A DNA stretch of 64,000 nucleotides, from IMG/VR virus record IMGVR_UViG_3300025413_001239. One strand, given 5' to 3'. This document shows, piece by piece, positions 5,935 to 64,000 of the stretch; the stretch's first letter is position 1; each line of letters opens with the position of its first letter. The position numbers and the translations under genes were made by a program. The DNA is from a virus. Taxonomy: Duplodnaviria; Caudoviricetes. A model generated the notes under the pieces. It searched no databases, had not been told where the DNA came from, and worked only from the letters and a program-made list of their open reading frames with translations.

Positions 5935-6005
5935 GGTTCTATAGCTCAACGGCAGAGCTGGACTCTCTAAAAGTCTTGATGTTGGTTCGATTCCGACTAG
6001 AATCA
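5935..6005 (+). tRNA. Amber suppressor tRNA (anticodon CUA)
   Basis: Full cloverleaf: GGTTCTA/TAGAATC acceptor, GCTC/GAGC D stem, GGACT-CTCTAAA-AGTCT anticodon arm (CTA at 5967-5969), GTTGG-TTCGATT-CCGAC T arm, A73; own promoter at ~5900. Confidence 0.9.
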
Positions 6006-6053
6006 CACTTTACATTTTTTAACAATTATTGTATATTTATAAAAAAAAGAAAT

Positions 6054-41767: not shown

Positions 41768-44188
41768 ATGGAAATAATAGCAGGTAAATGGTATAAGAAT
41801 TCTCAATGGACAAGTTCAAATGACTTATGTAAAGCAACAGGTGTTGTAGGTTCTAATGTAATCCATTTTAATGAAAAAATTACTAATGGTAAGTTTAAAA
41901 AGGAAGATAATTTTTGGTGTTATTTATCAACTTGTGTAGAGGCTGAATATGAAGAGTATGGGAAATATTTACCTGATGGCCACCCAGATAAACGTAAAAC
42001 AAGAAAAATTGAGGATATGCCTGTTGAATTAGTTAATTTTCCATCAGAAGGTTATTGTGAAACAACTGATAAAAGACTTGTTAAGTACTTAATTAGTAGA
42101 CCTGAATCAATGGGTGGTAACCCCCTAAAAAGTGATGCGAAGGGTATCGCTTGGAATCCTACCAGTTATTGGTATGTCGTGGGTGTCTCACTTAAATCGG
42201 TCTACACATTAGAACATTTGGAAAAGTTCTTCACTGAAAAGCCTAAACCTATTAATGAATGGGGTTTAAATACCTATTTAGTAATCGTTAAAGAAGGTTA
42301 TTTAGATTATGGTTATAAACTTACCAATAAACCAAAAACTAAAATTGGTCACGTTGGTAGAATTGATTTTTTTCGTAATGATGAATCTGTTACAGGTGTA
42401 AGTGGTATTGAATGGGTATTTGAGAAGGACTTAGCTAAGTGGTTTGCAACCAAAGAAGAAGCTGAGGCATTTGCTAAAACACTTAATAAAGACTCAATGA
42501 ATAATGAATTTAAAAAGGGTGATTATATTGTTACTCTTAATGTAGGTGTTACAACTACTAGTTGTGGTAAAAATGGCTTTTGTTTTAAACAACGTGAGGA
42601 TGCTAACTATATAGAGCCAGTATGTGATTTAAAAAATAGTGACACTAATAGTCATTGGGGGTTAACATTTGATAAATCTAACCATTTAAAAGATTGGCGA
42701 TATGCAACTAAGGATGAGATTCAAATTTATAATGAGTTAAAAAAGCCTTTTGATGTAACTGCGTTGCCTAATGTTGGTAATTATATTACCGTTACACATA
42801 ATGATAATGAAGATGAAAAAATTATATGCAAGTATAATAGGAAATGGGATGCTTTAAGATGCTATGGTCCTATAATTAGTAATTTCGATTCTATTGGTAA
42901 ATTTACGTTTAACAATGATTTAGGTGTTTGTTTTATCGGTGATGATAGAAAGTATAGACCTTCGACTGATGAGGAGATTGCTTGGCTTGATGCTTGTGTT
43001 AAAAATGGTGGTATTGTTGGTGGTATAGTTGATATTATAGAACTTATTGATTTTAAAACATGCGCTGGTAGAATTGTTAAGGCTAAAAAGGACCGTCCGT
43101 ATTCCATACCAATAAAAATTGGTGAATATGGAACATTAGATGATGAATATGGAATTAAATTATCTAATTATAGCGGTACTTTTGGTTTTGTTGAGGACAC
43201 ATTTTATGAGGATTTTGAGGTAATGCCTAAGGGGTTCACGTTACCAGAACCTAAAGAAGAAATTGAGAAGGAACCTGAATATAAGGTTGTTGAATGTAAA
43301 TCACAAGCTGAATGGGACTTTGTATCTAAGAAGTTAGGTTATACATGGAATGAACCAAGATTTGATTATTGTAATGATAATTGCATTAATATTCAACGAA
43401 AATCTCGTAGTAATCTTGCTTTCTATAAAAAAGAAAATAGCTTAATATACTCATTCGATGAATGGTGTAAAAAGTTTAATCATACTTTTGATAAATTTGA
43501 TGGTATTGAGTATGTGGAACTAGATATAGATTTTTGTGGTTATAAAGAAGGTGATATAGCTAAAGTAATTAATACGGATGGTTCTGTATTTGAAATATTT
43601 GCACCAAATAGGAAATCGCAGTCAAGTTTTACTCCAAATGTATTTGCTAGTAGAACTTACTTAAATCCATCAACCAAAGAGGCGTATGATAAGCAACATG
43701 CTACGGTAACACTTGATACATCAGGTAGTATGGTTGGTCTTTATAAAGAAACACCTAAAACAGTTGATTTTAAGGTTGGTGATTGGGTTGTATTTGAAGT
43801 TGATAAATGCTTTGGTGATTTAAGTTATTGCAAGACTGTTGCTTGGGATAGAGATATGGTCCTTCAAATTGAAGGATTTGAAACTCGTGGTGGTAACCCC
43901 AAATTTACAGCTAAACAAATGCAAAATCGTTATCCTCACCATAATTGGGGAAGTTTTGATGGTGTAAATTCCTATGACATAGGCAATACTGTAAGTCTTT
44001 TCAGACACGCTTATTCTTGGGAAATTCCAAGTGAAACAACAAAAGATACAACTTATGAACTTAAACCAATTAGCACAGTTAAGACTTATCAATTGTTTAT
44101 TGAGAAAACACAAGCTAAGCCAGTTGTTGCTGATAAGCCAATTAATTTAATTAAAACAAGAAAGTTACAAATAAATTTGGTGGATTAA
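41768..44188 (+). CDS. 806-aa modular phage protein of concatenated small domains
   Basis: Recurrent WRYATKDEI / YRPSTDEEI / KGDYIV / KVGDWVV modules. Confidence 0.65.
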   Translation: MEIIAGKWYKNSQWTSSNDLCKATGVVGSNVIHFNEKITNGKFKKEDNFWCYLSTCVEAEYEEYGKYLPDGHPDKRKTRKIEDMPVELVNFPSEGYCETTDKRLVKYLISRPESMGGNPLKSDAKGIAWNPTSYWYVVGVSLKSVYTLEHLEKFFTEKPKPINEWGLNTYLVIVKEGYLDYGYKLTNKPKTKIGHVGRIDFFRNDESVTGVSGIEWVFEKDLAKWFATKEEAEAFAKTLNKDSMNNEFKKGDYIVTLNVGVTTTSCGKNGFCFKQREDANYIEPVCDLKNSDTNSHWGLTFDKSNHLKDWRYATKDEIQIYNELKKPFDVTALPNVGNYITVTHNDNEDEKIICKYNRKWDALRCYGPIISNFDSIGKFTFNNDLGVCFIGDDRKYRPSTDEEIAWLDACVKNGGIVGGIVDIIELIDFKTCAGRIVKAKKDRPYSIPIKIGEYGTLDDEYGIKLSNYSGTFGFVEDTFYEDFEVMPKGFTLPEPKEEIEKEPEYKVVECKSQAEWDFVSKKLGYTWNEPRFDYCNDNCINIQRKSRSNLAFYKKENSLIYSFDEWCKKFNHTFDKFDGIEYVELDIDFCGYKEGDIAKVINTDGSVFEIFAPNRKSQSSFTPNVFASRTYLNPSTKEAYDKQHATVTLDTSGSMVGLYKETPKTVDFKVGDWVVFEVDKCFGDLSYCKTVAWDRDMVLQIEGFETRGGNPKFTAKQMQNRYPHHNWGSFDGVNSYDIGNTVSLFRHAYSWEIPSETTKDTTYELKPISTVKTYQLFIEKTQAKPVVADKPINLIKTRKLQINLVD

Positions 44189-49534: not shown

Positions 49535-52368
49535 ATGAATAAGATACTTAATGGCTTAAGAGAATGACCTTGGGAAATGTATAACCACATTGGTGGATTA
49601 TCCTACAAAGGAACTTATCTACAAAGTCAAAAGATTGGTTATTGGTATTTTGATTGGTTTGGTAAACGCAAAACAGAGTTTTACTTATGAATAAGGTAAT
49701 TAAAGGTTTAAAAGAAGGGCTTTGGGAACAATATTTTTCTGATGGTAGCTTATATTACAGGGGAAGTTATTTGCACGACAAAATGGTTGGTTACTGGGTC
49801 GTTAATTATTTAGTCCGTTTTAAGCATCGTAAACAAGAAACTGAATTTTACTTATGAATCAATTTAACGCTAGAGGTAGCAAACATGGTCATTGGAAAAG
49901 TAATATTGGCGATACGTATATCCATGATGGTTCTTATCTTAATGGCAAAAAACATGGCCCTTGGAAATCAACCTTCGCATTTTCCGATAAGTTAAGCTGG
50001 ACTGGTTTCTATAAAATGGATATGCAAGTCGGATTCTGGAAAAAGTATCAAAAAGGTAAATTATATAAAACTCTATTTTATATATGAATCAATTTAACGA
50101 GAAAGGGGAAAAGCACGGCTATTGGGAACGAAAAATTGGTGGAGTATTCACCCATAAGGGTTCCTATGTTAATGGTAAACAACATGGCTTATGGTTATCA
50201 GCATCTTGGGAAGAATATCATACTAATGGTAAATTACATTATAGAGGACAATACAAAAATGGAAAATACATTGGTAGATGGATATACTATTTTTCTAACG
50301 GCAAGTTAGCTTTTCTGGGTCATTACTTAAATGGTAATTACATAGGCTTCTGGATAGTTAATGATGATGATGGTCAATTAAAATATAAAGCATTTTATCT
50401 ATGAATCAAAGAAACGATAAAGGCTTAAGAGAAGGTTATTGGGAAGATAAACATGGTGATATGGTAATTTATAAGGGTTCCTATGTTAATGGTCAAAAAC
50501 ATGGCTTATGGTTATCAGCATCTCCAACTTCTAATCGGTTAAATTGGGCAGGTTATTTTGATATGGATACCAACGTGGGGTTCTGGTGTTGGTATCTTAA
50601 AGGTGAATTAAAAACAACACTAGAATTCTTTTTATGATTAAGCAAAAACTACATGAATTTGATAATAATTGGTATAGAGGACAATGTATAAATAATATAC
50701 CTGTTGGATTTTGGTTATTTAAGACTAATACAATTTTTGGTAAACATAATAAGATTTTTTACTTATGATATATTATGATAAAATGGACAGAATTAGTGAA
50801 TTATCTAATTATCTTCTCTACGGTTTCAATTTTACTGGCCGTTACATTAACGGATTTAAAATCGGATTTAAAATCGGATTTTGGGCCATAATTGATTATT
50901 CAACCGAATTAACGCATAAAGAATTTTACTTATGAAAATACATCATCATGAAACAACATGGTCTAAAGGCACACTTATTGATGGTGCGCAAATTGGTTAT
51001 TGGGAATACTATCACCACGTTAATCGTGGCAATTTAAAATCAATTAATAAAGTATTTCTTTTATGAAAGAACACTACAAATCAAATTGGGCAAAGGGTAC
51101 ATTTATTAATGGTGATTTTCATGGCTATTGGGAATTTTATCAGTATGGTAATTCTAAAATACTAAGCAATAAAATCACAATTAAAACATTCTTCATATGA
51201 AAGAATACGTAAATCAAACTTGGTATAATAGAGGTGGTAACTTAAAACGAGCTGAATTTTATTTATGAACGACAAAAATACAACCGAATTAATTGAAAGG
51301 TATTATCAAAACGGACAACTTAGTATCAGAGTTACATTAGTAAACGGCAAAAGGACTGGTGCTTGTGAATCATATTTCCAAAATGGTAAATTGGAATTTA
51401 AAGGACCATGCCTAAATAACGAACCCATCGGATTCTGGCTGGATTATCATTATAGCGGTAAATTAAATACAACAGAATTTTACTTATGAACGAATATATA
51501 CTTGAAATAAATTATTATAATAACGGAAAAATACGTTTTAAGTCATCTTATACGGATAATCGAAATAAGACTACAACCGAATGGTATTTCGAAAACGGTC
51601 AGTTAGACTTGATGTGTCATTACTTAAATTATCAACAAATAGGATTCGCTAAATCCTATTATCAATATGGTGGTTTACATACAACAGAATTTTACTTATG
51701 AATCAATATAACGCAAACGGTGAAAGACATGGCCCTTGGGAATTTTATCACAATAAAAAAATTGAATGCAAAGGCCAATACGTAAACGGACAAAAAGAAG
51801 GTCAATGGATATGGTATTACCCTAACGGAACAATAGCATTCAATTACGTAAACGGATTAATGCATGGCACGTTTGAAAGTCATGATGATAAGTCAATACT
51901 TGTTTGTAAAGGCCAATACGTAAACGGACAAAAAGAAGGTGAATGGTGGGAAACTAACATAACGAAAGCATACACATGGTTAAGAACTTATTCAAAAGAC
52001 CATATCAGATTTGAAAAAAAATATGAATACATGGGTCATTTAATACATAAAGCATTCTTCTTATGAATAAGAAAATTAATAGCTTAAAAGAAGAACCTTG
52101 GGAAACCTATTATACTAATGGTAAACTAGCCTCTAAGGGTGAATACATTAACGGCAAACATCACGGACCATACGAATCATTTTATATGAATGGTAACTTG
52201 TATTGGCAAGGCTATTTTAAAGACGGTATTTACCATGGCTTATTTAAAGTATTTTATAATAACGGACAAGTATTCTCTAAAGGTCAACACTTTAATGGTG
52301 GTAAATGTGGCATATGGGAATACTATCACGAAGATGGTCTAATAGATTATAAAGAATTTCACTTATGA
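49535..52368 (+). repeat. MORN/YwqK-like mini-gene block 3: 14 chained ORFs (starts 49535, 49687, 49854, 50084, 50401, 50634, 50765, 50932, 51063, 51197, 51265, 51486, 51698, 52063)
   Basis: Read codon by codon; 23-122 aa each, all joined by ATGA overlaps; first has an internal TGA. Confidence 0.85.
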
Positions 52369-52384
52369 TGTTTAACGAACTTAT

Positions 52385-52523
52385 GTGCCGTAGGCCAGAT
52401 GTCCAACGGACGAGTGTGCCGTAGGCCAGATGTCCAACGGACTTGTGTGCCATCGCCATGAAGGCTCTGGACGAGTGTGCCGTAGGCCAGATGTCCAACG
52501 GACGAGTGTACACAAAAGTGTTC
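52385..52523. repeat. Tandem 30-31-nt GC-rich repeats (4 units)
   Basis: GTGCCGTAGGCCAGATGTCCAACGGACGAGT x3 (one with 2 changes) plus a variant unit; then GTACACAAAAGTG. Confidence 0.9.
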
Positions 52524-52882
52524 ATGAAATTAGAAGTTATGGATAAATATAACAACATAAGACTCTTATTGTAAAAATTACTTAAAATTCCTTAAATTTA
52601 ATTCTATGTGTTCTTAAGTGTACCTAAAACAACCCGTTTACATTATTTGAGTTTTTTTTTGAATTTTTGGTAAAATGTGGTAAAAAGTGGGTAAATGTGG
52701 TAAAATCCAGACGTAAAAAACGGAAAATGGGGTTTTTAAGGCATTTTAAAGAGTTTTTTAAAATATAGCATTTTAGCCATTTTTGAAAAATCATTTTATA
52801 CCACCCACTAAAAATATTTTTTTTCGATATATTACAGGAAATTTTTATACGTCTATATACAGGGCATAAAACCGCTTTTATA

Positions 52883-52972
52883 TACACAAAAGTGTACATG
52901 AAGTCCAGAGCCTTCATGGCGATGGTACACTCGTCCGTATGTCCTCGTGACTACGGTACATAAAGTCCACAC
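52883..52972. repeat. Inverted member of the same repeat family
   Basis: 52903-52930 is the reverse complement of 52445-52472 with one mismatch. Confidence 0.85.
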
Positions 52973-53089
52973 ACAAGCCTGAATGTTCCACGTGAAACAT
53001 AAGATTTTGGCCAGGTTTTTACGGTACCCTTAAAGCTTAAATTTTTCATGTTCAGCCTTAAGAATTGTACCTGAGTACTTGTGGTTTAA

Positions 53090-53353
53090 TTAAACAGTTA
53101 TTTGCGCACTGGATGCGTCATATTTAATTGAACCATATTTACTGTACTGAATTCCAGATTTAAATTCAGGTTCCTTTAACCTAAGAAATTTGTATGCGTC
53201 CCATAGGGCCTTTTTAGCTTCTCTTTTTGTTTTAAATGTTATTGTGTATCCATAGAAGTTATTTCTAGTTGTTACAGAATTATGTGTTTGGATTGCTCTA
53301 CAAAGGGTACTGTTTCCGTTTATTTGACCCGTAATGTTAATAGTTGTTATCAT
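53090..53353 (-). CDS. Hypothetical protein with divergent promoter
   Basis: TACTTTTG motif on minus strand at ~53380. Confidence 0.6.
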   Translation of the reverse strand: MITTINITGQINGNSTLCRAIQTHNSVTTRNNFYGYTITFKTKREAKKALWDAYKFLRLKEPEFKSGIQYSKYGSIKYDASSAQITV

Positions 53354-53549
53354 ATATAAGTTATTTGATGAGCGGCAAAAGTATATGTATGTAAGTCACC
53401 GTAAAAGATGAATTTGGTTATGTGGTAATCTACTAGTATATTTGCAGTAGTTAAGTGGTTAATTGTTAAGGGTTTACATATAAATAAAATAAAAAAAGTT
53501 TTTGCCATATCAAAAAATACCCTTATCTTTGCATTCTAAATTAACAATT

Positions 53550-54323
53550 ATGGTATTAGAAAATGTTCAAAGTAAAAAAGTTATTAAAACAAGTTATGTT
53601 CGTGGTAAGTATCCTTTATTAACTCAAAACAATTACAAAACAATTAAGGGTGAAAAGTTGGGCATCAAAACACTTATATTGTATCTAAGTCCTTATAAGG
53701 ATAATAGTAAGGGTAAAAACTTATGTCCCAAGGCTAGTTTAGGTTGTAGCAAAGCTTGTTTATTTAATAGTGGTATGGGTGGTATGTATGAGCAAGTTGC
53801 TAATGGTAGACGTAATAAAACAGAATGGTTTCTCGAAGATAGGGAAAGTTTTGTTGGTACGCTTATTGTTGAGATTGCGAAAGCGGTAAAAAAGTATAGT
53901 GCTGATTGGCATTTGAGTATTCGCTTAAATGGTACTAGTGATATTGTTTGGGAAAACATTTATTATGGTGGTAAGAATATTTTCGAGCATTTTCCTGATG
54001 TAGATTTTTATGACTATACTAAAATTAGTAGTAGATTCAAAAAACAACTACCAAAAAATTACCACTTAACTTTTTCAAGGAGTGAAGAAAACGAAAGTGA
54101 AGCTTTAAGCTTATTGCGTAAGGGTTTCAATGTGGCTGCCGTATTCTTAAAAAAACCAACACATTACAAAGGGTTTAAGGTAGTTGATGGCGATTTATCT
54201 GATAACCGTATTGGTGACGAAAAGGGTGTAATTGTAGGTTTATCCTATAAGAACGCTACAGGTAAAAATGGTGGTGAATTAAACCAATATGCGAAGACTA
54301 GTGGGTTTGTAATATTTATTTAA
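53550..54323 (+). CDS. Phage Gp88-like protein
   Basis: NLCPKAS.GC..ACL, IRLNGTSDI.WE, FYDYTK, YHLTFSRSE, DGDLSD.R; likely start 53550. Confidence 0.75.
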   Translation: MVLENVQSKKVIKTSYVRGKYPLLTQNNYKTIKGEKLGIKTLILYLSPYKDNSKGKNLCPKASLGCSKACLFNSGMGGMYEQVANGRRNKTEWFLEDRESFVGTLIVEIAKAVKKYSADWHLSIRLNGTSDIVWENIYYGGKNIFEHFPDVDFYDYTKISSRFKKQLPKNYHLTFSRSEENESEALSLLRKGFNVAAVFLKKPTHYKGFKVVDGDLSDNRIGDEKGVIVGLSYKNATGKNGGELNQYAKTSGFVIFI

Positions 54324-54382
54324 AAATAAATTTTGTTAGTAATAAAAATAGGCTTATATTTGCATAAATAAAAATAATAATT

Positions 54383-55273
54383 ATGGATATTAAACAACAA
54401 GCACAAGACATTTTAAGTAAACATGGATTAGATTTTACAATTAGTAAATTACCATTAATAGCTATTGATGAAGGTGGTAATCAGTTGATAACACCTTATT
54501 ATGGTTTAGTCAATTCGAGTAATAACGAATGCATCAATACTTGCCGAGAAGGTTATACCATATCCCAAAACAGTGATGTTATTGAGATGGTGTTAACGGG
54601 TATGCAAAAGTTTGGTGATGAGTTAACAGTTAGCAAGGCTGGGTCAATTAATAACGGACGAAGGGTATTTGTGCAGTTGGAAGTTAAGGGCTTAAAAAAG
54701 ATTGGTAATGATACCATGAAGCAGTTTGTTACTGTTATTGATAGTAACGATGGTAGTACAGGTCTTAGTGTGGGTATATCAGATATTCAAGCACATTGTA
54801 CTAATCAGTTTTTCAGATTCTACAAAAAGGGTAATTCAAGGTTCAGGCATACTGCAACTATTACTCAAAAGATTCAAGAGATTCCTAGTTTAATTGAAAC
54901 AGCTCTGAATGAAAACCTAAGGCAGGTTCGTACATACGAGCGTTTCTTAAGTACTGAATTAAGTAAGAACTTAGCTGATAAGATGGTTAAGGAAGTGTTA
55001 GGTTATGATAGGGTGTTTACGAGCTTAGAAGACTTCGCAAAGATGACTAATCGTTCAACTGATATGATGGATACGCTTTATAACAATATTCAACATGAAT
55101 TTGGTGAGGTTGGTGAAAACTTATTTGGTTTGTTTAATGGTGTAACTAGATACACTACTTATCATCAAAGTACCCCTAAGCGTTTTAATGGGCATGATGA
55201 AAGTCTCATTGTTGGTTCTGGCTATAAGAAAGCCTTAACAGCTTATGACCTTTGTCTAGCTGAAATAAGCTAA
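54383..55273 (+). CDS. DUF932 (TIGR03299-like) protein
   Basis: GLDF, KAGSINNGRRVF, SNDGS, CTNQF, RHT, NLFGLFNGVT. Confidence 0.8.
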   Translation: MDIKQQAQDILSKHGLDFTISKLPLIAIDEGGNQLITPYYGLVNSSNNECINTCREGYTISQNSDVIEMVLTGMQKFGDELTVSKAGSINNGRRVFVQLEVKGLKKIGNDTMKQFVTVIDSNDGSTGLSVGISDIQAHCTNQFFRFYKKGNSRFRHTATITQKIQEIPSLIETALNENLRQVRTYERFLSTELSKNLADKMVKEVLGYDRVFTSLEDFAKMTNRSTDMMDTLYNNIQHEFGEVGENLFGLFNGVTRYTTYHQSTPKRFNGHDESLIVGSGYKKALTAYDLCLAEIS

Positions 55274-55276
55274 AAT

Positions 55277-55320
55277 ACTTATCCACACTTAGCTTCGGTT
55301 GAGTGTGGATAACTTTTTTT
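55277..55320 (+). terminator. Terminator hairpin whose arms contain perfect DnaA-box sequences
   Basis: TTATCCACA 55279-55287 / TGTGGATAA 55304-55312, T run follows. Confidence 0.65.
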
Positions 55321-57560
55321 ATACATGGGTAAAAAAGTAACGGGTAGGTCGGAGTATACCCCCGATGTCGTTTAGAACTATCGTCTTGTCTCAATGACAC
55401 TGCAAAGATAAGGGTTTCGTTTCATATAAAAAAACTTTTTTTATTTTTGTTTATGTGAAAATATAGTATTATATTTGCATCACAATAAAATTAAGTAGTT
55501 ATGAAAGTTGCAAAATTAGTAAGAGTGTCATTAGTTTGTCGTGTAATTTGTGAGGATACAGCTAGTAAACAGGATATTTTGGAATTGGCTATTCCTAAGT
55601 TAAGTGAAGCACTTATGGATAATCCGTATGAATCGGTTGAAGAAATTCTTGATGATACAGAATGTCCTTTTGATTTATCAACTGATGATTAAAAATAAAT
55701 TTTTTTATGTGGAGATATACTAGTATATTTGCAGTATATTTGCAGTATAAAATTTATTATTAACAATTAAACAACGAAGATGTCCCCGTTCAAAGGGCAT
55801 GTAGCTTATCGGACAATATTTCAAAGCGTGTACATTAGGCGCAAATGGTAAAACAGTTAACAAGTGGGTTTATTCGTGGGATTTCAATAATGGGCTTAAA
55901 TTAATGGAACATTCATTTATTGGCAATCCGTTTGTTTCAGCGGTTGAAAGTCTTATATGGAATAAGCCTGAACGTTTGGTATGGGCTGGTGATTATGCAG
56001 ATAAGTGTAAGCAACGTAAAAGTAATGTGTATGACCGTTGCACTGACAAAAACCAAGTTAAGCCTATTGCGATGGTATCTACAAAGGAAAGCAGGTTTAT
56101 TATAAACCATACTAAGGGCTTGTATGTGGATAAAAATAAAGTACCTAAAGACAAATCTCATTGGGGTTTGCAATTACATCCTTTGCCATTACTAACTTGT
56201 GAGGGCAATTTAAGAGGTGGGGGTAGTTTTAGTGGTGCTAAAGGTGCTGAATTTGTTGGTACATGGGCAAGAGATTTAATTTCAGTTAGTTCAAAAAAAC
56301 CTATTGGATTTAAGGAAATTACACCTAACTTTAGTGAAGGTTAATAGATTATTGGATAACCTTATTTTATATAAGGTTATCCTTTTTGATATATCTATTA
56401 GTATGTGAACATAATGGTTTTAATTTGCGTAAAGTGGTTTATTCAAATTATCACGATTGTCATAAGATACCTAAGCGTATTGATGAAGATGACGAAGATG
56501 TTAAAGAAGTGTTGGTTATCAGTTAAATTAAATGAGATGAATGTAGAAAAAATGTCAAGGTTTGATGTAATCCATAAGTTATTTCAATTGGATTTAGTAA
56601 ATGGGGATACTAACGGTTGTGTATCCTATAGTGAGTTTAAGAATCGTGCTAGTATTATGAGGTACGGGAAACAAAACAAAAATCAATTGAAGATTGTTTT
56701 TGTTGGGTTTCCTAAGGAGAATTTATTTGGATTCTATGTTCAATGTGATACTGACCCAAAGTGTATGAAACAAGCTTATGAGTGGTATTGCAAGTTAATT
56801 AAGGGTAAATTAGATTTTGACGATGTGGATATTCACTTTGGTAATTGTGGGTTTCCAATCACTTATGGTTATATTCGTTATATTGAATAATTATCACGTT
56901 TTATATCTCTATTAATTTTTGAACATAAAGGTTGAAGGTTAGTCGTATCAAAAAATACTAGTATATTTGCATCATAATTAAAAGTTTAACAAATGAAAAA
57001 ATTTAATGTTACTTCGGGAGTTCTTGTTGCTTCTGACCCATGTTACACGATTAACCCACCAACATGGTATCAAGGCATCATTGAGAATGTCAAAAACGGT
57101 GAGTGGATTGCTACCGTTGAAGAATACGGTGAGCGTATTGCTGAATTGTTTATATCGCATAAGGATACGCATTTGACCTTATCTGATATGTTTGTTGATG
57201 AAGTTGAATTTCCCTTTGCAGCTGCTGTTGATAGTGGGCAATTTGGCTTTTTTGATAAGGCAGGTTATCGTCAAGACTTATTGGCTAATGGTTTACCTAA
57301 GGCTGATTTTGGTGATGGTTACGATAGAGAAGAAGGCGACCTATGGTATCGTGCTGTTTGTGATTTGACTTTAGGTGATGAAGGTTGGGGTGTATTGCCT
57401 GACGGTGTTGCTTCAAGTTCTGGCTTTGGTGATGGTCGTTATACCGTATATGGTGTTAAGGATGGCAATGGTGAATGGGTTGGCTTACGGGTTGTCTTTA
57501 TCAATTTGGAAACAGATAAAGAAGACGAAGACGAAGACGATGAGTTATAAAAAAGATTTG

Positions 57561-57580
57561 GGGGTATAGAAATATACCCC
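57561..57580. repeat. Palindrome GGGGTATA-GAAA-TATACCCC (also 60470-60489, 61248-61267)
   Basis: Three identical 20-nt copies; two form the spacer of a TTTG..TATATTTG promoter. Confidence 0.85.
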
Positions 57581-57591
57581 TATATGGGTAT

Positions 57592-57655
57592 GTACACAAA
57601 AGTGTACTATACGTCACGAGGACGTTCGGACGAGTGTACTATACGTCACGAGGGC
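57592..57655. repeat. Dispersed GC-rich repeat family member
   Basis: GTACACAAAAGTGTAC, then GGACGAGTGTAC core with TATACGTCACGAGG x2. Confidence 0.8.
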
Positions 57656-58955
57656 AAAATAAATTTGGTAGTTTGGAGATATAGCCTTATATTTGCATCA
57701 AATTAAAAGTTATGAAGAAATTACAGTTTATTGTTACATTAGAGTTTGCTGATAAGATAAGCGATGATAATGAAATTATTGAAGTTGCTAAAAATATCGC
57801 TAGAGCGATTAAGAATGAAGTAAACCACGGTGAAGGTATTGCTCCTGACGATAGTGATTCGTATACTTTAGGCGGTGAAGTTAAGCCTCAATTTATTGAC
57901 GAGTTTGCACCTATTACAATTTAAATTAGGTTAAGTCCTTAAATACTAGTATATTTGCATTCTAAATTACGAAGCATGGCAAAGTTTTTTGTTGTTGATG
58001 GTTATTGGAAAGATGATAAGTCTTCCATTAATGGTTATATTGTTACTGATATGGATAGCAGTGTCGGTTACCCTGTTAATGGCTTAACAGATGAAGATAT
58101 ATTCTTTTATGGTTTAAATGAACTGGAGATTCAAGAAGCTATTGAGTTGGGTGAAGATACCGTTCAAGATTTTGTTATTACAACATATAGAGAATATTAA
58201 ATTTGGTGGTATCGAAAGATACTAGTATATTTGCATCAAATAAAACTTATAAATTATGACTTATATTGTAACTGATATTGAGTATGATACTGATGGTGAA
58301 GATGTTGATTTACCTGAAACGCTTAGTATAGATGTTCCTGATGAAATTGATAACGAGGATGAAATTTTAGATTATATTACTGATAAAATAAGTGATATAA
58401 CAGAATTTTGTACACTTGGTTTTATATTTGAAAAACACTAAAAATTTACAGATTATGCAATTGTATGGGGTTAAATTAAACGATGGTCACAAGGCAAGAG
58501 TTGACCAACAATTTGAGGGTTACTTAGGTAGCGGTTACATTGAATTTTACACTAGGGGTGAAGCCATAAAGAAGGCTAAAGCCTTCGGTGGTTCAATTAA
58601 ACCAATGGGTAAAAACTATACTGTTAAGTCCTTAACGGTTTTGCAGTTATCCAAAAAGGATATACATAAAGTAATTGTACAAAAACTTAAAGGCTTAGAA
58701 GCTTTTATAGATACAGAAGAAATTGATGAGCCTTTATATCAAGGCGATATATTCGAGCAAATTATTGGTGAGGTTTCAGAAATTACAAAAATGAAAGGTA
58801 CAACTTTTCCACCAAACTTTGAAATGGAGTTAAAAGTCTTAAATACGTTATGTTTCAATGCTGATTATATAATGTTAGTAGATTAAAAATAAATTTGCTA
58901 ATTCAAAATATAGTCGTATATTTGCATCATTATTAACATCTAAAAATTTACAATT

Positions 58956-59222
58956 ATGGGAATGGTTAAAAGACAAAAGCACACTTTGTTATTGGGTGAG
59001 GGTATTCACCAACACACTTTGTATGGTAACATTGAAGTTGAGGAAGAACGTAAGGACTTTTCAAAAGTTGTTGTTACAAGTGATGGAGTGTTAAGGCACG
59101 AAAAACCTAATGGTTCATTTGGTGAGCATAAAACTTTACAAGTTGAAAAGGGTAAATGGGTTCAAGGTAAGCAAGTTGAATACAATCCATTTAAGCAATC
59201 CGTATCACAAGTGTTTGATTAA
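58956..59222 (+). CDS. Conserved small phage protein (paralog of 15346)
   Basis: GEH..QVEYNP..VFD. Confidence 0.65.
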   Translation: MGMVKRQKHTLLLGEGIHQHTLYGNIEVEEERKDFSKVVVTSDGVLRHEKPNGSFGEHKTLQVEKGKWVQGKQVEYNPFKQSVSQVFD

Positions 59223-59316
59223 AATGAAAAGGGTAAATTAATTTTTACCCTTTTTTTGTTTATATCAAAAATAGTCTTATATTTGCACCAATATTAACAA
59301 TTTAAAAATTACAGTT

Positions 59317-59709
59317 ATGAACCCATTAGTCCATTCAAAGAGTTCAGTTAAACGTTGGGGTGGTAAAGTTGAAGATTACTTACCTATTCACATTTTACTT
59401 GATAGCCCAAAAGAAACTATGAATAACAATACAAGTAGATGCTTAACACATAATACTTGGTTTTGTTACCATATCATACCTAAGATATTTGGTTACAATA
59501 TAACCAATTCCGATGGTCGTAGTATTGATACTGTTGATATTGCTATGTTACATTGCTGCGAAGATTTTCGTTTTCGTTTCGTTCCTACACCACAAGACTA
59601 TTTGAAACACATGACTGTTGAAGCGTGGATGTGTAATGGAGTAAAGGATGTAGAAAATCCCGAAAGCATACAAGCAGCTAAGGATTTTTTAGAGAAAATC
59701 AGACAATAA
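59317..59709 (+). CDS. DUF6915-like protein
   Basis: MNPLVHSKSSVKRWGGKVEDYLPIH..EDF..FVPTPQD. Confidence 0.7.
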   Translation: MNPLVHSKSSVKRWGGKVEDYLPIHILLDSPKETMNNNTSRCLTHNTWFCYHIIPKIFGYNITNSDGRSIDTVDIAMLHCCEDFRFRFVPTPQDYLKHMTVEAWMCNGVKDVENPESIQAAKDFLEKIRQ

Positions 59710-59800
59710 ATTTGGTAGGTAAGTAATTTACCCTTACATTTGCACTCTATTAATAAATATCGGGATATTCCGAAAAAGTCATCTAATAAAATTTAAAGTT

Positions 59801-60457
59801 ATGGAACTAAAAGAAGCGTTACAAAGGTTTAAGGACTTAAACTTAGAGAAAGCAGTATTAACCTTTGATTGTGGTGGTGATAGTATGGGTGATACTAGTT
59901 GGGAGTTATTATTAGCTGATGGTGAAGCAGTTAAGGACGATGATTTGGAAAGTTACTTTGACGATGAAGTTTATAGGGAAGTAGAGTTCTATGTTAATTC
60001 CGATGGGTATTACAACGGTGAAGCAGGTACTGTTGAGGTTACTATTGAAACTGACGGTGAGGATGATGAATTTTTCAGTTATTATAAGGATGCTATGAGT
60101 GAGTTTACAGAGCAAACCACTAACATCATTGAGGTTAAATTAACGCCCGAAATGTTAGCTTTCATTTCTGAAAATGTATCAAACATTAATGGTGATGATA
60201 GTGGCTTTACTATCAATTACAAAAAAGACTTGCTTTTGACTGATGAACAAGAAACGCTTGTTGATGAGATTGAAAACTTGTTACAAAAGGAGTGTGAAGA
60301 ATATGAGCCTGAAATGGAAGGTGATGATTGCACACTTGAAGATTGGTTTAGTTATACCACAAATTCGGATAATGACGAATTAACTGAATTAACTATTAAA
60401 GACGATAACCTTTTGGTTATCCTTACTAATAGTTTCCAAACATTTAGTGAAAGTTAG
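59801..60457 (+). CDS. Acidic DUF6878-like protein
   Basis: FDCGGDS..N.DG..G motif. Confidence 0.55.
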   Translation: MELKEALQRFKDLNLEKAVLTFDCGGDSMGDTSWELLLADGEAVKDDDLESYFDDEVYREVEFYVNSDGYYNGEAGTVEVTIETDGEDDEFFSYYKDAMSEFTEQTTNIIEVKLTPEMLAFISENVSNINGDDSGFTINYKKDLLLTDEQETLVDEIENLLQKECEEYEPEMEGDDCTLEDWFSYTTNSDNDELTELTIKDDNLLVILTNSFQTFSES

Positions 60458-60527
60458 GAAAAAGATTTGGGGGTATAGAAATATACCCCTATATTTGCAT
60501 TATTAAATAACACATAAAATACAGATT

Positions 60528-61235
60528 ATGGCGAAAATTATTGTTGAAAATTACAAGTTCGATTTTGACTTGGGTTGCAGGCTTTTAAAGTTAAAGCACA
60601 CAGAATGTCCTTTTGTTCAGTTGGAAGATTTTTGGGATGAAATTAAGCCCTTAACTTTCAAGGAGATTGCACAGCTTGAAAACTTGGAGATGCGAAGGAT
60701 TGGTATTGTATGCTTGGGATTGGAAAGGCTTGTTGCAGAAGTTAATCCAAACAGATTAAGTGAGGAAACGCTTATCAAAAAAACTACTTGGATTGGTGAG
60801 GATGGTGGTTTAATTGAACACACATTTGAAGATACCTACGAATTGTTTGAGGTTGATGGGGAATACTTTAATAATGGTTTAACCGATTGGCGTAAGATGG
60901 GTAACTGTTACTTTGTTAAGTTCAAGGATACTTCAACCGATAGGGTTTATATGATTTGGGTTAATTTGTCAAGTGTTTGGAGTACAAACAATAAGCCAAA
61001 GGCTAATAGACAAAATTGGTTTATTGAAGAAGTTCATAAGCGAGAAATTTCACCTATTGATTGTATTGCTTGGACTTTGCAAACGAATGTTGCGAAGGGT
61101 AACATTGAGAAGATTATTAGACAAGGTGATTGCATTTTGGTTAAGCCAAAACACGCAAAGGATGTTACTGACGATAGCCCTGTTAGGCACTTAACAAGTG
61201 AAGAATACAGAAACTTGTTAGTTGCAGAAAGCTAG
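60528..61235 (+). CDS. Conserved phage protein, DUF6745-like (paralog of 15697)
   Basis: KDTSTDRVYMIWV..CIAWT..RQGD..EEY..LLVAES. Confidence 0.55.
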   Translation: MAKIIVENYKFDFDLGCRLLKLKHTECPFVQLEDFWDEIKPLTFKEIAQLENLEMRRIGIVCLGLERLVAEVNPNRLSEETLIKKTTWIGEDGGLIEHTFEDTYELFEVDGEYFNNGLTDWRKMGNCYFVKFKDTSTDRVYMIWVNLSSVWSTNNKPKANRQNWFIEEVHKREISPIDCIAWTLQTNVAKGNIEKIIRQGDCILVKPKHAKDVTDDSPVRHLTSEEYRNLLVAES

Positions 61236-61291
61236 AAAATAAATTTGGGGGTATAGAAATATACCCCTATATTTGCATCAAATTAATAATT

Positions 61292-62959
61292 ATGGCAAAT
61301 ACATTAGAACAAAGAACGGTTTATTTAAACGGTAGAATGGTTACTGTTGGATTAACGGGTGATTTAGGTTATATTGCCATAAACGATACAAACATATATC
61401 CTGACGCTGATAGTCGTGAACAGCATAAAGAAACAATCATACCGTTAATTAATAAAGCTGATTTAAAGGCTTTAAAGGTTGCGATTGACGAGGTGTTAAT
61501 AAATAGTAAGTAATATGAATATTAAGTGTACGCATTGTGGTTCAACTAACATCAAGGCTATTGATAACGAGCCATTAGACTTCAATAACGAGACTTTCGA
61601 TAACGAGTTATATGTTAAGTTCGATTGTAATAATTGTGGCAAAGAATGTACGAAAGTATTCGATTTGAAGCCACAACACAAGAAGCTTGATGAGCTTGTT
61701 GATAGGGTTATCCACCATATCGAAAAGGACTTTAGAGACAAGGACTTAACTGCTGTTGATGATTTGTTAAAGTGTTGCCCAGTTAAAAACCTTGTGGCTT
61801 ATTTGCCTGAAGAGGAATGGGCTGAATTTAAACACCTATTGTTATAACAGTTTAATTAAACAGATATGCCCGAAGTAATTAAAATAGTTAAGGATTGTCC
61901 TTGTTGTGGGGATAATACCAAAGTAAAAAAGGATTTTGATTTTCCTGATACAATGTTATGTTGTGATAAGTGTGGTGCTGATTTTACTAATGATGGCGAG
62001 ATTATACTTGACCCTCGTTTAATTAAATAGATGTACACATTAGTGTACCATACGAGCGTGGATGCAGAAATATTTGGCTATATCAAATAAAGTCCTATAT
62101 TTGCACTCTAAACAAACAGAATATGAGTTATAGTATAATCTACGACAGAGCCTTTATCAAGGTTGACGACAAAAGAACAATACCCTTTCTATTGATGGGT
62201 AGTAACAACTGTTACGACTTAAACAATAAACGTGCTAGGGATTGGGAAAATGCTAGTTTTCATAGTAACGGTATCATTGGTGATAACGAAGCTATCATAA
62301 AGAGCATTGATGATTATCGTGCCAGTTTAATTGAACGGTATGACGGTGTAGAACGTAGTGATGTTTATGACGACAAGCATTTCGGGTACTTTACAAGCCT
62401 TGCCTTTTATGGTAAGGGTACTTGGAAAACAACGTTTTCAGCTTATAGAAGCTACTTTGCTAATGGCATTAAGACAGCTAGAACGATTGAGGAATATAAG
62501 GCGTTATGTATAACTTTTGACGTTAAAGTGTATGTTTGGGATAAACAAAAGGACTTTATTGATAAGGGTATCGAATACAAGGAACGTGTTCATATAAACG
62601 ATACACAACACTTGATTGATACGGTTAAGGAGTTTGAAGATTACTACAAGCCTTTCGGTTATATGGTTTATATAACTAGCCATATAAGCGAATATACAGC
62701 AAAGCGATTAAAGGCTAAAAGAGTACCTAAGCAAAAAGAAGTTAAGGACTTAACAAAAGTATGGGTGTTAGAGTGTTTAAATGTTAATGGTTACTTTGTT
62801 AAGAATGGTCGTAGAAGTTATCGTTATTCACCTTGGAGTGATAATGCTAAGAAGTTTATAACTGAAAGACAAGCACAAGGATACTTAAATAAAATGCTTA
62901 GAAATAAAGATATGTTTGAAGTTAAGCCACTTGAAGGTAGCTTTAAGGTATTGGTTTAA
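61292..62959 (+). other. Hypothetical genes 61292, 61515 (Zn ribbon), ~61866 (Zn ribbon), 62123
   Basis: ORF track; CxxC pairs. Confidence 0.6.
62033..62065. repeat. Dispersed repeat family member
   Basis: GTACACATTAGTGTACC. Confidence 0.6.
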
Positions 62960-63026
62960 TTTCACATATATTCTGTAATACATACAAGGGAACGGTTTAT
63001 ACCGTAGCCCTTTTTTTTATACCTAT

Positions 63027-63073
63027 ATGTTCCGCTGTCACGAGGACAGCGGACGAATGTACTCAAATGTGTA
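63027..63073. repeat. Dispersed repeat family member
   Basis: GCTGTCACGAGGACAGC-GGACGAATGTAC. Confidence 0.7.
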
Positions 63074-63075
63074 TA

Positions 63076-63789
63076 TTAGACTTTATTTCGTTTAACGTCA
63101 CGATTGTAATAGCTACACAACGGTTGTAAGTTGGTGTAATGGTTCAATTGAACCACTTCTTGTTCGGTTAGTGCGGAACTGTTAGGTATTTTATGGTCAA
63201 TATCCCAACCATAATTTGGAGTACCATTATACAACCCATAATTATCCCAGCTCATCCATGACTCAAATTTAGATTCAAGATGTTGTTTAAATTCTTCAAT
63301 TGTACAACCTAGTATTTCAGTTGTTTTTGATGGTTTATTAAACCCTTTAAGACGTAAAGCGGTTTGGATTCTTTTCCTAGTGGTTTCTTTAAGCCGATAA
63401 AGAATATCAGTTTCATACCTGTTTTTACGATAATTATAGGCATACATTGTAACAGCTTCTTTATTACGTTTTTTATATTCATTACTATATGCTTTAATCT
63501 TTTCAGCGTTTTCCTGATAACGAATTTTATTATACTCACTTTTTTTAACCTTAGTTAGTTCATAGTATTGGTTTAATTTAACCGTGTTAGCTTCTCGATA
63601 CTTAACGTTATACTCACGTTTTTTATCCTTATCATAACTAGCTTTAGTACGTTTTAAAACTTTATCTTTATTAGCTTCATAATATTGCTTTGACTTTTCA
63701 GTTATAGATTGTTTATTAGCTTCATAATAGAGTTTTTTTCTTAGTTTAATAGCTTCTTTTTGTTCTGGTGTATATGTTCTTTTTGCCAT
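63076..63789 (-). CDS. HNH homing endonuclease
   Basis: GCTIEEFKQHLESKFESWMSWDNYG..WDIDH..NHYTNLQPLCS. Confidence 0.85.
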   Translation of the reverse strand: MAKRTYTPEQKEAIKLRKKLYYEANKQSITEKSKQYYEANKDKVLKRTKASYDKDKKREYNVKYREANTVKLNQYYELTKVKKSEYNKIRYQENAEKIKAYSNEYKKRNKEAVTMYAYNYRKNRYETDILYRLKETTRKRIQTALRLKGFNKPSKTTEILGCTIEEFKQHLESKFESWMSWDNYGLYNGTPNYGWDIDHKIPNSSALTEQEVVQLNHYTNLQPLCSYYNRDVKRNKV

Positions 63790-63791
63790 AG

Positions 63792-63962
63792 TTATAGTGG
63801 TATTTCAGTTATGTGTTTATTTTTAAATAAGTCTTTAGCGATTAAGTTTTCGATATACTTAGATTTGTTATTATATAGTTCATCAACTTTTTGCATTATT
63901 AATGGGTTAATTGAAACTGTTACAGTAACCTTTTTTTCCTTTTCATCTAGTTTTTTTCTCAT
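63792..63962 (-). CDS. Small RHH-like DNA-binding protein (not in ORF track)
   Basis: 56 aa MRKKLDEKEKKVTVTVSINP..NKSKYIENLI; clear paralog of 1739-1906. Confidence 0.65.
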   Translation of the reverse strand: MRKKLDEKEKKVTVTVSINPLIMQKVDELYNNKSKYIENLIAKDLFKNKHITEIPL

Positions 63963-64000
63963 AGTGTTCTTTATTATAAATATATTAAAACATAAGAAAA

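What the first reader, a model, noticed from the sequence alone, without database searches (positions are those of the whole stretch)
52385..63073. Dispersed GC-rich repeat family centred on a gene-free region: candidate origin, terminus or protein-binding array
Seen: core GGACGAGTGT(G/A)C separated by 17-20-nt interchangeable segments (GTAGGCCAGATGTCCAAC, ATCGCCATGAAGGCTCT, ..GTCACGAGGAC..) and the palindrome GTACAC-N4-GTGTAC. Four tandem units at 52385 face an inverted set at 52883-52972 across ~370 nt of AT-rich DNA; further copies lie at 57592, 62033 and 63027, all intergenic. By eye the + strand looks more G/T-rich to the right of this site (not computed). Inference: iterons around a melting region, a genome-end or packaging signal, or sites for a phage DNA-binding protein bracketing the early region.
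Basis: partly seen in the sequence, partly recalled or inferred. Interest (0 to 1): 0.7.

Follow-up and report, generated by a model that had tools for sequence, protein, structure and literature searches.

The report
Palindrome-anchored hairpin cassettes, phage early island
The GC-rich repeats are real, but they look like modular junction elements between early genes of an uncultured jumbo phage rather than a replication origin or genome end. They are built around a 20-bp palindrome shared by a whole clade of such phages, which marks where gene cassettes and selfish nuclease genes get inserted and which is probably also a regulator's binding site.

Summary
Observation confirmed. The family has three parts. 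There are 30-31-nt GC-rich hairpin units (CC-stem-loop-stem-GG, joined by a linker such as ACGAGTGTRC). There is a 20-bp palindrome, ATGTACAC-N4-GTGTACAT. There is a short tail, YATACGAGCGTG. All copies are intergenic and lie only at 52.4-63.1 kb.

I found no support for an origin or a genome end. GC skew stays positive on both sides, long metagenome contigs run straight through the site, and the same modules recur at three ordinary gene junctions.

Comparison with strains and relatives shows three things.
- The elements sit after a gene's end and 24-26 nt before the -33 box of the next host-type promoter.
- Gene replacements between close relatives break inside these promoters, as with T4-type PeSL elements.
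- The tandem unit number is polymorphic (4 versus 2).

The palindrome is conserved in sequence across many uncultured T4-like jumbo phages, at 2-5 copies per contig. It flanks small cargo genes in pairs. An HNH nuclease cassette is inserted exactly in it, with a 9-bp duplication. In 15 of 30 loci it precedes a small gene next to the phage sigma-factor gene. That gene's product has an XRE-type helix-turn-helix fold, so it is the likely binding protein (inferred, not shown).

The 360-nt AT-rich centre is a conserved non-coding block of unknown role. The scan had already noted this stretch in an overlapping window.

The parts
52377..52507 (+). Left array. A degenerate core, then four tandem hairpin units in the order A, A, B, A (31/31/30/31 nt). 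It follows the last MORN mini-gene, whose stop is at 52368.
   Evidence: (D14). Strain L075 carries only two units.
52506..52525 (.). Inner palindrome of the left array (GTACAC AAAA GTGTTC, one mismatch).
52526..52879 (.). AT-rich non-coding centre. It holds a GTACC..CCCGTTT element (52620-52640), a T-run, and four direct GGTAAAAnGTG boxes about 10 nt apart (52667-52708; CCAC boxes on the minus strand). The block is conserved next to the palindrome(s) in relatives.
52880..52899 (.). Inner palindrome of the right array (ATACAC AAAA GTGTAC, one mismatch). The same A-variant occupies the homologous place in relative G004.
52898..52972 (-). Right array. Units B and C plus a degenerate core, inverted relative to the left array.
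   Evidence: (I1, I4, I5)
52984..52999 (.). Perfect canonical parS (TGTTCCACGTGAAACA). It is a neighbour of the repeat family, not a member.
   Evidence: No parS-like site in relatives G001-G004.
57556..57590 (+). Truncated promoter. The -33 box and the hairpin spacer are intact; the -7 box is cut after TATAT. It marks a cassette-replacement junction.
   Evidence: the 82% relative L188 has the intact promoter and a different downstream gene.
57590..57655 (+). Perfect palindrome (57592-57607), one full unit C and one partial unit, ending 8 nt before the -33 box of the next promoter (57664-57695).
62031..62067 (+). Perfect palindrome (62033-62048) plus the tail CATACGAGCGTG. The -33 box of the promoter at 62073-62103 lies 24 nt downstream.
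62985..63018 (+). Ordinary intrinsic terminator (hairpin plus T-run) of the 278-aa gene, lying upstream of the repeat element.
63029..63074 (+). Unit C (a perfect 8-9-bp hairpin with loop ACGAG) plus a two-mismatch palindrome. It abuts the 3' end of the nuclease gene.
63076..63962 (-). Selfish cassette. It holds an HNH/endonuclease VII-like gene (237 aa, 63076-63789) and a 56-aa gene (63792-63962), behind an ATATTTAT box at 63976.

Best explanation
The repeats are the upstream half of composite boundary cassettes in the phage's hyperplastic early-gene island. They are a Bacteroidota-phage counterpart of the T4-type PeSL (promoter-early stem-loop) elements.

A full cassette reads, in order:
1. 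the gene end, sometimes with an ordinary terminator;
2. 0-4 GC-rich hairpin units;
3. the 20-bp palindrome ATGTACAC-N4-GTGTACAT;
4. the tail YATACGAGCGTG;
5. a host-type promoter.

Shown by comparison:
- The cassettes mark the places where genes were swapped between relatives.
- The palindrome is a clade-wide insertion point. Cargo genes are flanked by two copies, and an HNH nuclease cassette sits exactly inside one.
- Units are gained and lost in tandem.

Inferred:
- The palindrome is a DNA operator for a small phage XRE-type helix-turn-helix protein encoded beside the phage sigma-factor gene. Because it is conserved, it is also the target or landing site of the nuclease cassettes.
- The GC-rich units act as stem-loops that stop or insulate transcription entering from the upstream gene.
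- At 52.4-53.0 kb, two such arrays face each other around a conserved non-coding control block at the head of the island. Its role is open.
For: Anatomy.
- Units fold as hairpins closed by CC..GG. 91% of cells pair against 81% in shuffles (0 of 500 reach it) and 21-42% when partners are slid. Three pairs change on both sides.
- All seven cores read in the sense of the surrounding genes.

Position.
- At five sites, in the window and in relatives L063 and L064, the palindrome lies 24-26 nt before the -33 TTTG box of the next promoter. At two of them it follows an ordinary terminator.

Junctions.
- At 57556 a promoter is cut inside its -7 box. From there on, the element, a new promoter and a different gene replace what relative L188 carries.
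- The composite at 62033 joins the upstream half of one L063 promoter to the -7 box and leader of another. This removes about 3.4 kb.
- Such junctions and 'degraded' half elements are features reported for PeSLs (PMC4122927).

Strain polymorphism.
- Four versus two units, and the core variant GA to TT moves between units.

Palindrome.
- 57 unique perfect sites; the spacer is A/T-only in 54 of them.
- It is the top recurring 6-4-6 palindrome in three relative contigs, with 2-4 perfect copies per 125-160 kb and none for the reversed control pattern.
- Pairs 200-480 nt apart flank unrelated small genes.
- In bacterial genomes it appears scattered, mostly one per genome, across phyla, as chance would give.

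Candidate regulator (gene Y).
- In loci chosen only by their sigma-factor gene, 15 of 30 loci with the small gene Y carry the palindrome about 70-95 nt before its start.
- This includes the window's own population (L308, perfect site 36 nt before the ATATTTAT box).
- The C-terminal domain of Y resembles XRE-type HTH domains. Nearly all of the top 50 structural matches are of this fold, Z 4.6-6.5 over 57-68 residues.

Nuclease.
- In L308 the HNH cassette lies between ATGTACACAAT and a complete palindrome, where relative G001 has one uninterrupted site.
- 8 of 31 distinct HNH copies have a palindrome within 260 nt, against 6.6% of random stretches.
Against: - No expression, end-mapping or binding data could be obtained.
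- Only about 3 of some 17 early promoters at 53-63 kb carry the element, so it is not a general part of early promoters here, unlike many PeSLs.
- Neither the units nor the palindrome are followed by a U-run, so they are not classical intrinsic terminators.
- The link between Y and the palindrome rests on position alone. The fold match is middling in Z and the model's mean pLDDT is 73.
- The palindrome equally lies downstream of the preceding gene, so an RNA-hairpin role fits the same positions.
- Compensatory changes in short quasi-palindromes can arise by template switching without selection.
- The most conserved piece of the tandem array is the linker, not the hairpin. This model explains that only loosely, as a half palindrome.
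- Most HNH copies (23 of 31) are not next to a palindrome.
Confidence: 0.45

Rival explanations
1. Pure RNA elements. Both the units and the palindrome act only in transcripts, as 3'-end hairpins that terminate, protect or direct processing of mRNAs, like REP elements in E. coli 3' untranslated regions. No DNA-binding protein is involved.
For: - Hairpin covariation in the units.
- Sense orientation of all cores.
- Position right after stop codons.
- In one relative the palindrome forms the top of a longer GC stem followed by a T-run (G003 at 70586).
- In other lineages a different, co-varying hairpin occupies the place after the sigma-factor gene (L109-L111, L122).
Against: - The palindrome's arms keep their sequence across phages whose proteins are 36-50% identical.
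- Its variants carry uncompensated mismatches (A-C, A-A, G-A) rather than compensated pairs.
- The spacer is A/T-only in 54 of 57 sites.
- At two sites it lies after a complete ordinary terminator.
- There are no U-runs.
Confidence: 0.2
2. Replication origin at 52.4-53.0 kb. The 31-bp-spaced cores are iterons, or the inverted hairpin arrays are single-strand priming signals as in RSF1010 oriV (comparison from memory). They flank an AT-rich melting region with weak DnaA-type boxes. The dispersed copies would be secondary sites.
For: - Inverted arrays around 360 nt of AT-rich DNA.
- Core spacing of 30-31 bp, about three helical turns.
- Four direct boxes about 10 nt apart; two of them match TTWTNCACA with one mismatch.
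- The central block is conserved in relatives, which carry their own lineage-specific short repeats beside it.
- A parS lies next to it, as at bacterial origins.
Against: - No sign change of GC or AT skew.
- No initiator-like gene next to it.
- The same modules sit before ordinary promoters at 57.6 and 62.0 kb.
- Unit number differs between co-existing strains.
- The variable parts of the units differ too much to be one protein's site.
- The DnaA-box resemblance is not above what AT-rich DNA gives.
Confidence: 0.12
3. Selfish or scar DNA. The units are miniature mobile hairpin elements (REP/MITE-like), or repair scars left by repeated double-strand breaks at the palindrome made by the HNH nucleases. 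They would have no function for the phage.
For: - The GC-rich core occurs in no other IMG/VR contig.
- Presence, absence and copy number vary between close strains.
- Each unit carries a half palindrome.
- An HNH cassette is inserted exactly in the palindrome.
- The window holds three TnpB genes.
Against: - No target-site duplications or defined ends around the arrays.
- No core motif near the TnpB genes.
- No Y1 or RAYT-type transposase was seen.
- Similar 'TGTGC + small GC hairpin + GTACC' modules lie beside the palindrome in a distant relative (L009), which suggests constraint.
Confidence: 0.12
4. Genome end or packaging (pac or cos) signal.
For: Repeat-rich, gene-free region. Several short metagenome contigs end inside it.
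Against: - Contigs of 149 kb and larger cross it unbroken in several samples.
- The short contigs end inside the repeats or the AT-rich centre, as assemblers do at such sequence.
- T4-like phages package by headful, without fixed ends (established knowledge).
Confidence: 0.02

Closest known systems
PeSL elements (promoter-early stem-loops) of T4-type phages (Arbiol et al. 2010, PMC2839356; Comeau et al. 2014, PMC4122927)
   Same: - A stem-loop lies just upstream of a conserved early, host-type promoter.
- The elements lie between small variable genes of a hyperplastic region.
- Insertions, deletions and replacements between close relatives have their junctions in or beside the element.
- Degraded half elements are left at junctions.
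   Different: - The promoters are of Bacteroidota type (-33 TTTG, -7 TAnnTTTG), with no Shine-Dalgarno part.
- Only a minority of early promoters carry the element.
- The stem-loop part is a sequence-conserved 20-bp palindrome shared across a clade, plus amplifiable GC-rich hairpin units. In PeSLs it is a loosely defined stem.
- It also precedes late-type promoters, and it is an insertion point for HNH cassettes.
Palindromic operators of small XRE-family regulators, such as phage repressors and restriction-modification controller proteins with their C-boxes
   Same: - A perfect dyad of 8+8 bp with a short A/T centre.
- Few copies per genome.
- One copy lies upstream of the promoter of a small gene whose product has this fold.
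   Different: - Binding is not shown.
- The protein has an extra N-terminal helix and a disordered linker, and matches no Pfam or PHROG family.
- The phage looks lytic and T4-like, so this would not be an immunity switch.
REP/BIME mosaic elements of enterobacterial chromosomes (from memory, not tested here)
   Same: GC-rich imperfect palindromes in intergenic or 3' regions, combined with short interchangeable motifs into mosaic clusters of variable copy number.
   Different: - Found in a phage genome.
- About ten units, confined to one 11-kb island in this window.
- Tandem direct units rather than alternating orientation.
- No RAYT transposase was seen.
Free-standing homing endonuclease genes of T4 (Seg and Mob families), which insert between genes (from memory)
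   Same: Multi-copy nuclease genes in reversed orientation between early genes, with their own promoter. Insertion is at a conserved sequence, with part of the site duplicated.
   Different: - The nuclease family is HNH/endonuclease VII-like with a lysine-rich repeat N-terminus.
- The landing site is a regulatory-looking intergenic palindrome, not a conserved coding sequence.
- Cleavage specificity is untested.

Membership tests
PeSL (T4-type promoter-early stem-loop) | Stem-loop immediately upstream of an early host-type promoter | tested here: met
   The palindrome ends 24-26 nt before the -33 box at 57592 and 62033, and at three sites in relatives L063 and L064.
PeSL (T4-type promoter-early stem-loop) | Lies in a hyperplastic region between small variable genes | tested here: met
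   At 53.4-63 kb there is a row of small genes, most without a known family, each behind a copy of the promoter.
PeSL (T4-type promoter-early stem-loop) | Indel and replacement junctions between close relatives fall in or beside the element, with degraded half elements | tested here: met
   A truncated promoter at 57556 versus the intact one in L188, and a chimeric promoter at 62073 versus L063. Units are present or absent downstream of the 278-aa gene.
PeSL (T4-type promoter-early stem-loop) | Sigma-70 type -35/-10 promoter followed by a Shine-Dalgarno sequence | tested here: not met
   Promoters are TTTG-N17-21-TAnnTTTG (35 in the window). Sigma-70-type matches are at chance level (55 versus 56.7).
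PeSL (T4-type promoter-early stem-loop) | The stem-loop accompanies most copies of the early promoter | tested here: not met
   Only about 3 of some 17 promoters at 53-63 kb have the GC-rich element or palindrome.
Iteron-type replication origin | Direct repeats of one binding sequence in helical phase beside an AT-rich stretch | tested here: inconclusive
   Cores are 30-31 bp apart next to 360 nt of AT-rich DNA. However, the unit bodies differ (A, B, C) and the core itself varies (GAG, TTG, TTC, TCG).
Iteron-type replication origin | Strand-composition polarity switch at the site | tested here: not met
   GC skew is positive on both sides, and the cumulative skew rises steadily over the 64 kb with only three brief local dips, none of them at this site.
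Iteron-type replication origin | Initiator gene next to its repeats | tested here: inconclusive
   The neighbours are MORN mini-genes, 87-aa and 52-aa genes without a family, GP88 and DUF932. None is a known initiator, but several are of unknown function.
ParABS centromere | The repeats are parS sites or co-occur with the ParB gene | tested here: not met
   One canonical parS lies beside the array, but the repeats do not match it. The palindrome occurs in relatives G001-G004, which show neither a ParB homologue nor parS. These contigs are incomplete.
Intrinsic (Rho-independent) terminator | GC-rich stem directly followed by a T-run | tested here: not met
   The scan flags ordinary terminators nearby (55279, 56354, 62992) but none of the units. 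The palindrome at 62033 is flagged only weakly, on the minus strand.
Operator of an XRE-type HTH regulator | Dyad-symmetric site next to the gene of a protein with that fold | tested here: met
   15 of 30 sigma-selected loci with gene Y, and locus L308 of the window's own population. For the fold, the top matches are nearly all XRE-type domains, Z 4.6-6.5.
Operator of an XRE-type HTH regulator | The protein binds the site | not testable with these tools
A gel shift or footprint is needed.
REP/BIME elements | Cognate RAYT (Y1) transposase and high copy number across the genome | tested here: inconclusive
   Only TnpB-type genes were seen in the window, and the core is absent outside 52.4-63.1 kb. 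The rest of the roughly 343-kb genome could not be read.

The most novel reading that the evidence does not exclude
The palindrome would be a dedicated cassette docking site shared by a clade of jumbo phages. Endonuclease VII-like HNH nucleases would cut at it, or at the cruciform it can form, and break repair from co-infecting relatives would then copy in whatever lies between two such sites. That would explain the paired copies around unrelated cargo genes and around the nuclease genes themselves. The GC-rich hairpin units would be amplified by-products of this repair. The result would be a site-specific gene-exchange system in lytic phages, functionally akin to integron cassettes, layered on a regulator's operator.
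Probability: 0.2. Interest if true: 0.7.

Novelty: new variant of a known kind. Interest (0 to 1): 0.5.

Why it matters
Hyperplastic regions hold most of the unknown genes of large phages, and how they are reshuffled is only partly understood. PeSLs are the one described mechanism, and so far they are described for phages of Proteobacteria and cyanobacteria. Here the junction element has a precise, clade-wide 20-bp signature, a candidate binding protein and a candidate nuclease partner. Cassette boundaries could therefore be found by pattern in metagenomes. The model could be tested with two purified proteins and one oligonucleotide. The work also removes a tempting but unsupported origin call from the annotation of this genome.

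Tried and rejected
- Rfam: at gathering thresholds the window gives only four tRNAs. A permissive scan of 52.2-53.2 kb gives only chance-level matches.
- Cultured phages (INPHARED): no relative at DNA level.
- Whole genome: none is held for the window, and metagenome records cannot be scanned whole.
- GC-rich core in IMG/VR: no exact scan for the core, or for two cores at unit spacing, found anything. The units are specific to this lineage.
- ParB as the palindrome's binding protein: rejected. The palindrome occurs in relatives without a detectable ParB or parS.
- Host transcription-factor site: rejected as the main reading. In 185,579 species genomes the 20-mer appears scattered over all phyla, mostly once per genome.
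- DnaA boxes in the AT-rich centre: two boxes match at one mismatch, which is no more than AT-rich DNA gives.
- Coding repeats: rejected. A 31-nt period is not a multiple of three, and the minus-strand ORFs across the array overlap the MORN gene in antisense.
- TAG recoding, suggested by the CTA-anticodon tRNA: it opens no long frames.
- Literature: a search for the palindrome's half-sites found nothing relevant.
- One 73% relative contig would have shown the homologous non-coding region, but it has no DNA on file.

Full report
WHAT IS THERE

The window is AT-rich (about 31% G+C) phage DNA. It carries 35 Bacteroidota-type promoters (TTTG-N17-21-TAnnTTTG), nearly all on the plus strand. It also carries tRNA genes, TnpB genes and homing-endonuclease genes. 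Earlier notes of this scan call it an uncultured T4-like jumbo phage from lake water. A protein of the window is on record on a 343,332-bp contig.

- The core GGACGAGTGTRC has six exact copies, all at 52.4-57.7 kb. A seventh, with one mismatch, is at 63051. Chance gives 1.8 matches at two mismatches against ten seen.
- Four tandem units of 31, 31, 30 and 31 nt run from 52385 to 52507 and end in a one-mismatch palindrome.
- A one-mismatch palindrome plus two units lie inverted at 52882-52972.
- Partial sets lie at 57592-57655, 62033-67 and 63029-74.
- All copies are intergenic.

ANATOMY

Each unit is a small hairpin closed by CC..GG. Its variable body comes in three interchangeable kinds, A, B and C. 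Units are joined by a linker that contains GTGTRC, half of the palindrome.
- On an alignment of nine unit copies, 91% of cells pair, against 81% in shuffles (0 of 500 reach it) and 21-42% when partners are slid.
- Three of eight pairs change on both sides.
- Folding gives z-scores of -2 to -3.3.
- Caveats: the copies are few and related, I derived the structure from them, and quasi-palindromes can be perfected by template switching without selection.

The palindrome is really 20 bp: ATGTACAC, four A/T bases, GTGTACAT.

NOT AN ORIGIN OR AN END, ON PRESENT EVIDENCE

- GC skew is positive on both sides, and the cumulative curve shows no turning point at this site.
- Contigs of 149 kb and more from several lake samples cross the site unbroken.
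- Co-existing strains differ in unit number, four versus two, an exact 61-nt difference. A two-base core variant sits in different units in different strains.

WHERE THE ELEMENTS SIT

Downstream of the 278-aa gene, three related strains show three layouts.
- L063: an ordinary terminator, then palindrome, tail and promoter.
- L064: terminator, unit, palindrome, tail and promoter.
- The window: terminator, unit and a decayed palindrome.

At five sites the palindrome ends 24-26 nt before the -33 box of the next promoter. The element therefore lies between one transcription unit's end and the next one's start.

JUNCTIONS

- At 57556 a promoter copy is intact up to TATAT and then breaks off into the element. 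The element is followed by a new promoter and a 70-aa gene. The 82% relative L188 has the intact promoter there and a 166-aa gene that the window lacks.
- The promoter at 62073 shares its upstream half with one L063 promoter, and its -7 box and leader with another. About 3.4 kb of L063 genes are missing between them.
- Stem-loop plus early promoter, a place in a hyperplastic region, junctions at the element and degraded half elements are the features reported for PeSLs of T4-type phages (PMC4122927).
- Differences: the promoter type, the absence of a Shine-Dalgarno part, and the fact that only about three of some seventeen early promoters here carry the element.

THE PALINDROME IS CLADE-WIDE

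- An exact scan of IMG/VR found it in 55 stretches. Several AT-rich contigs of 50-250 kb carry two or more copies, often 200-480 nt apart.
- In four relatives read in full it has 2-4 perfect copies each, and none for the reversed control. It is the top recurring 6-4-6 palindrome in three of them.
- Among 57 unique perfect sites the spacer is A/T-only in 54. Nothing beyond the flanking AT is conserved.
- In bacterial and archaeal genomes it is scattered, mostly once per genome, over all phyla, as chance would give. It therefore looks like a phage matter, not a host regulon.
- The GC-rich core was found in no other IMG/VR contig. Other lineages do have their own short GC-rich hairpins and repeats beside the palindrome.

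RECURRENT CONTEXTS OF THE PALINDROME

First, pairs flank unrelated small genes: a 66-aa membrane protein, a 66-83-aa family, and a cytochrome c-like gene.

Second, one or two copies lie beside a conserved non-coding block.
- The block has three or four direct CCAC boxes, an A-run, then AAACGTGCT..GGTAC.
- It lies next to the GP88 and DUF932 genes in the window, G002, G004, L004, L009, L014, L028 and L032.
- The window's AT-rich centre is this block.
- Its role is open. It could be a control region, a small RNA gene or an origin-type site.

Third, the palindrome precedes a small gene, Y.
- In loci chosen only by their sigma-70-family gene, 15 of 30 loci that have gene Y carry the palindrome 70-95 nt before its start. 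That is 24-27 or 35-38 nt before an ATATTTAT box, which other notes of this scan read as the late promoter.
- The window's own population has this arrangement too.
- Y matches no Pfam or PHROG family.
- Its modelled C-terminal domain matches XRE-type helix-turn-helix domains almost exclusively: Z 4.6-6.5, 57-68 residues aligned.
- Variants of the site carry uncompensated mismatches rather than compensated pairs.
- Together with the A/T spacer and the conserved arms, this favours recognition of double-stranded DNA by a dimer. Binding is inferred, not shown.

Fourth, nuclease cassettes.
- The 237-aa gene at 63076-63789 has an HNH motif and a weak match to endonuclease VII.
- It is multi-copy in relatives.
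- In L308 a copy lies between ATGTACACAAT and a complete palindrome, exactly where G001 has one uninterrupted site. A second case in G003 has a decayed site, the gene, a half site and a perfect site.
- Eight of 31 distinct copies have a palindrome within 260 nt, against 6.6% of random stretches.
- In the window, the decayed palindrome at 63059 abuts this gene's 3' end.

ParB AND parS

A perfect canonical parS lies 12 nt outside the right arm, and a ParB-like gene starts just past the window's end. Relatives that have the palindrome show neither. I therefore treat parS and ParB as a separate, lineage-specific module.

READING

The best-supported account is a composite boundary cassette.
- Shown: position, modular make-up, strain polymorphism, junctions of gene replacements, paired copies around cargo genes, and nuclease insertion in the palindrome.
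- Inferred: the palindrome is the operator of the Y protein, the units act as insulating or terminating stem-loops, and the facing arrays shield the conserved central block.

I put this at 0.45. The rivals are a purely RNA-level role (0.2), an origin (0.12), functionless mobile or scar DNA (0.12), and a genome end (0.02).

Noticed in passing
window 52984-52999; L060:2240-3064: A perfect canonical parS lies 12 nt outside the right repeat arm. A ParB-like gene (274 aa; HTH_ParB and KorB domains) lies just past the window's end. Neither was found in four related contigs that do carry the palindrome.
   Followed up: partly
window 52620-52760 (and G002, G004, L004, L009, L014, L028, L032): A conserved non-coding block next to the GP88 and DUF932 genes in many related phages. 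It has three or four direct CCAC boxes about 10 nt apart, an A-run, then AAACGTGCT..GGTAC. Function unknown.
   Followed up: partly
window 63076-63962 (-); L308:2277-2864: A family of HNH/endonuclease VII-like genes with a lysine-rich repeat N-terminus. It has 5-7 copies in some relatives, sits behind ATATTTAT boxes, and several copies are inserted at the palindrome.
   Followed up: partly
L308:1439-3375; L079:10836-12178: A phage sigma-70-family gene is followed by the small gene Y. Y has an XRE-type HTH fold and matches no Pfam or PHROG family. In other lineages a different co-varying palindrome (ATGCTT..AAGCAT) follows the sigma gene.
   Followed up: partly
window 57556-57590, 60466-60497, 61244-61275: Three copies of an early promoter whose spacer between the -33 and -7 boxes is itself an 8-bp hairpin (GGGGTATA GAAA TATACCCC).
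   Followed up: no
window 55279-55312: An intrinsic terminator whose stem is made of two inverted perfect DnaA boxes (TTATCCACA). Another perfect box is at 56125.
   Followed up: no
window 5935-6006: A tRNA with anticodon CTA (amber suppressor type). Reading TAG as a residue opens no long frames in this window.
   Followed up: partly
window 10959-12194 (-), 17276-18568 (+), 40380-41612 (+): Three IS200/IS605-type TnpB genes. The GC-rich core motif does not occur near them.
   Followed up: partly
L027:1569-2045 (G003 about 42270-42762): A cytochrome c-like gene (CxxCH motif, 158 aa) carried as cargo between two perfect palindromes in a related phage contig.
   Followed up: no
window 49687-52368: A chain of MORN-like mini-genes linked stop-to-start (ATGA overlaps), ending right at the left repeat array.
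   Followed up: no
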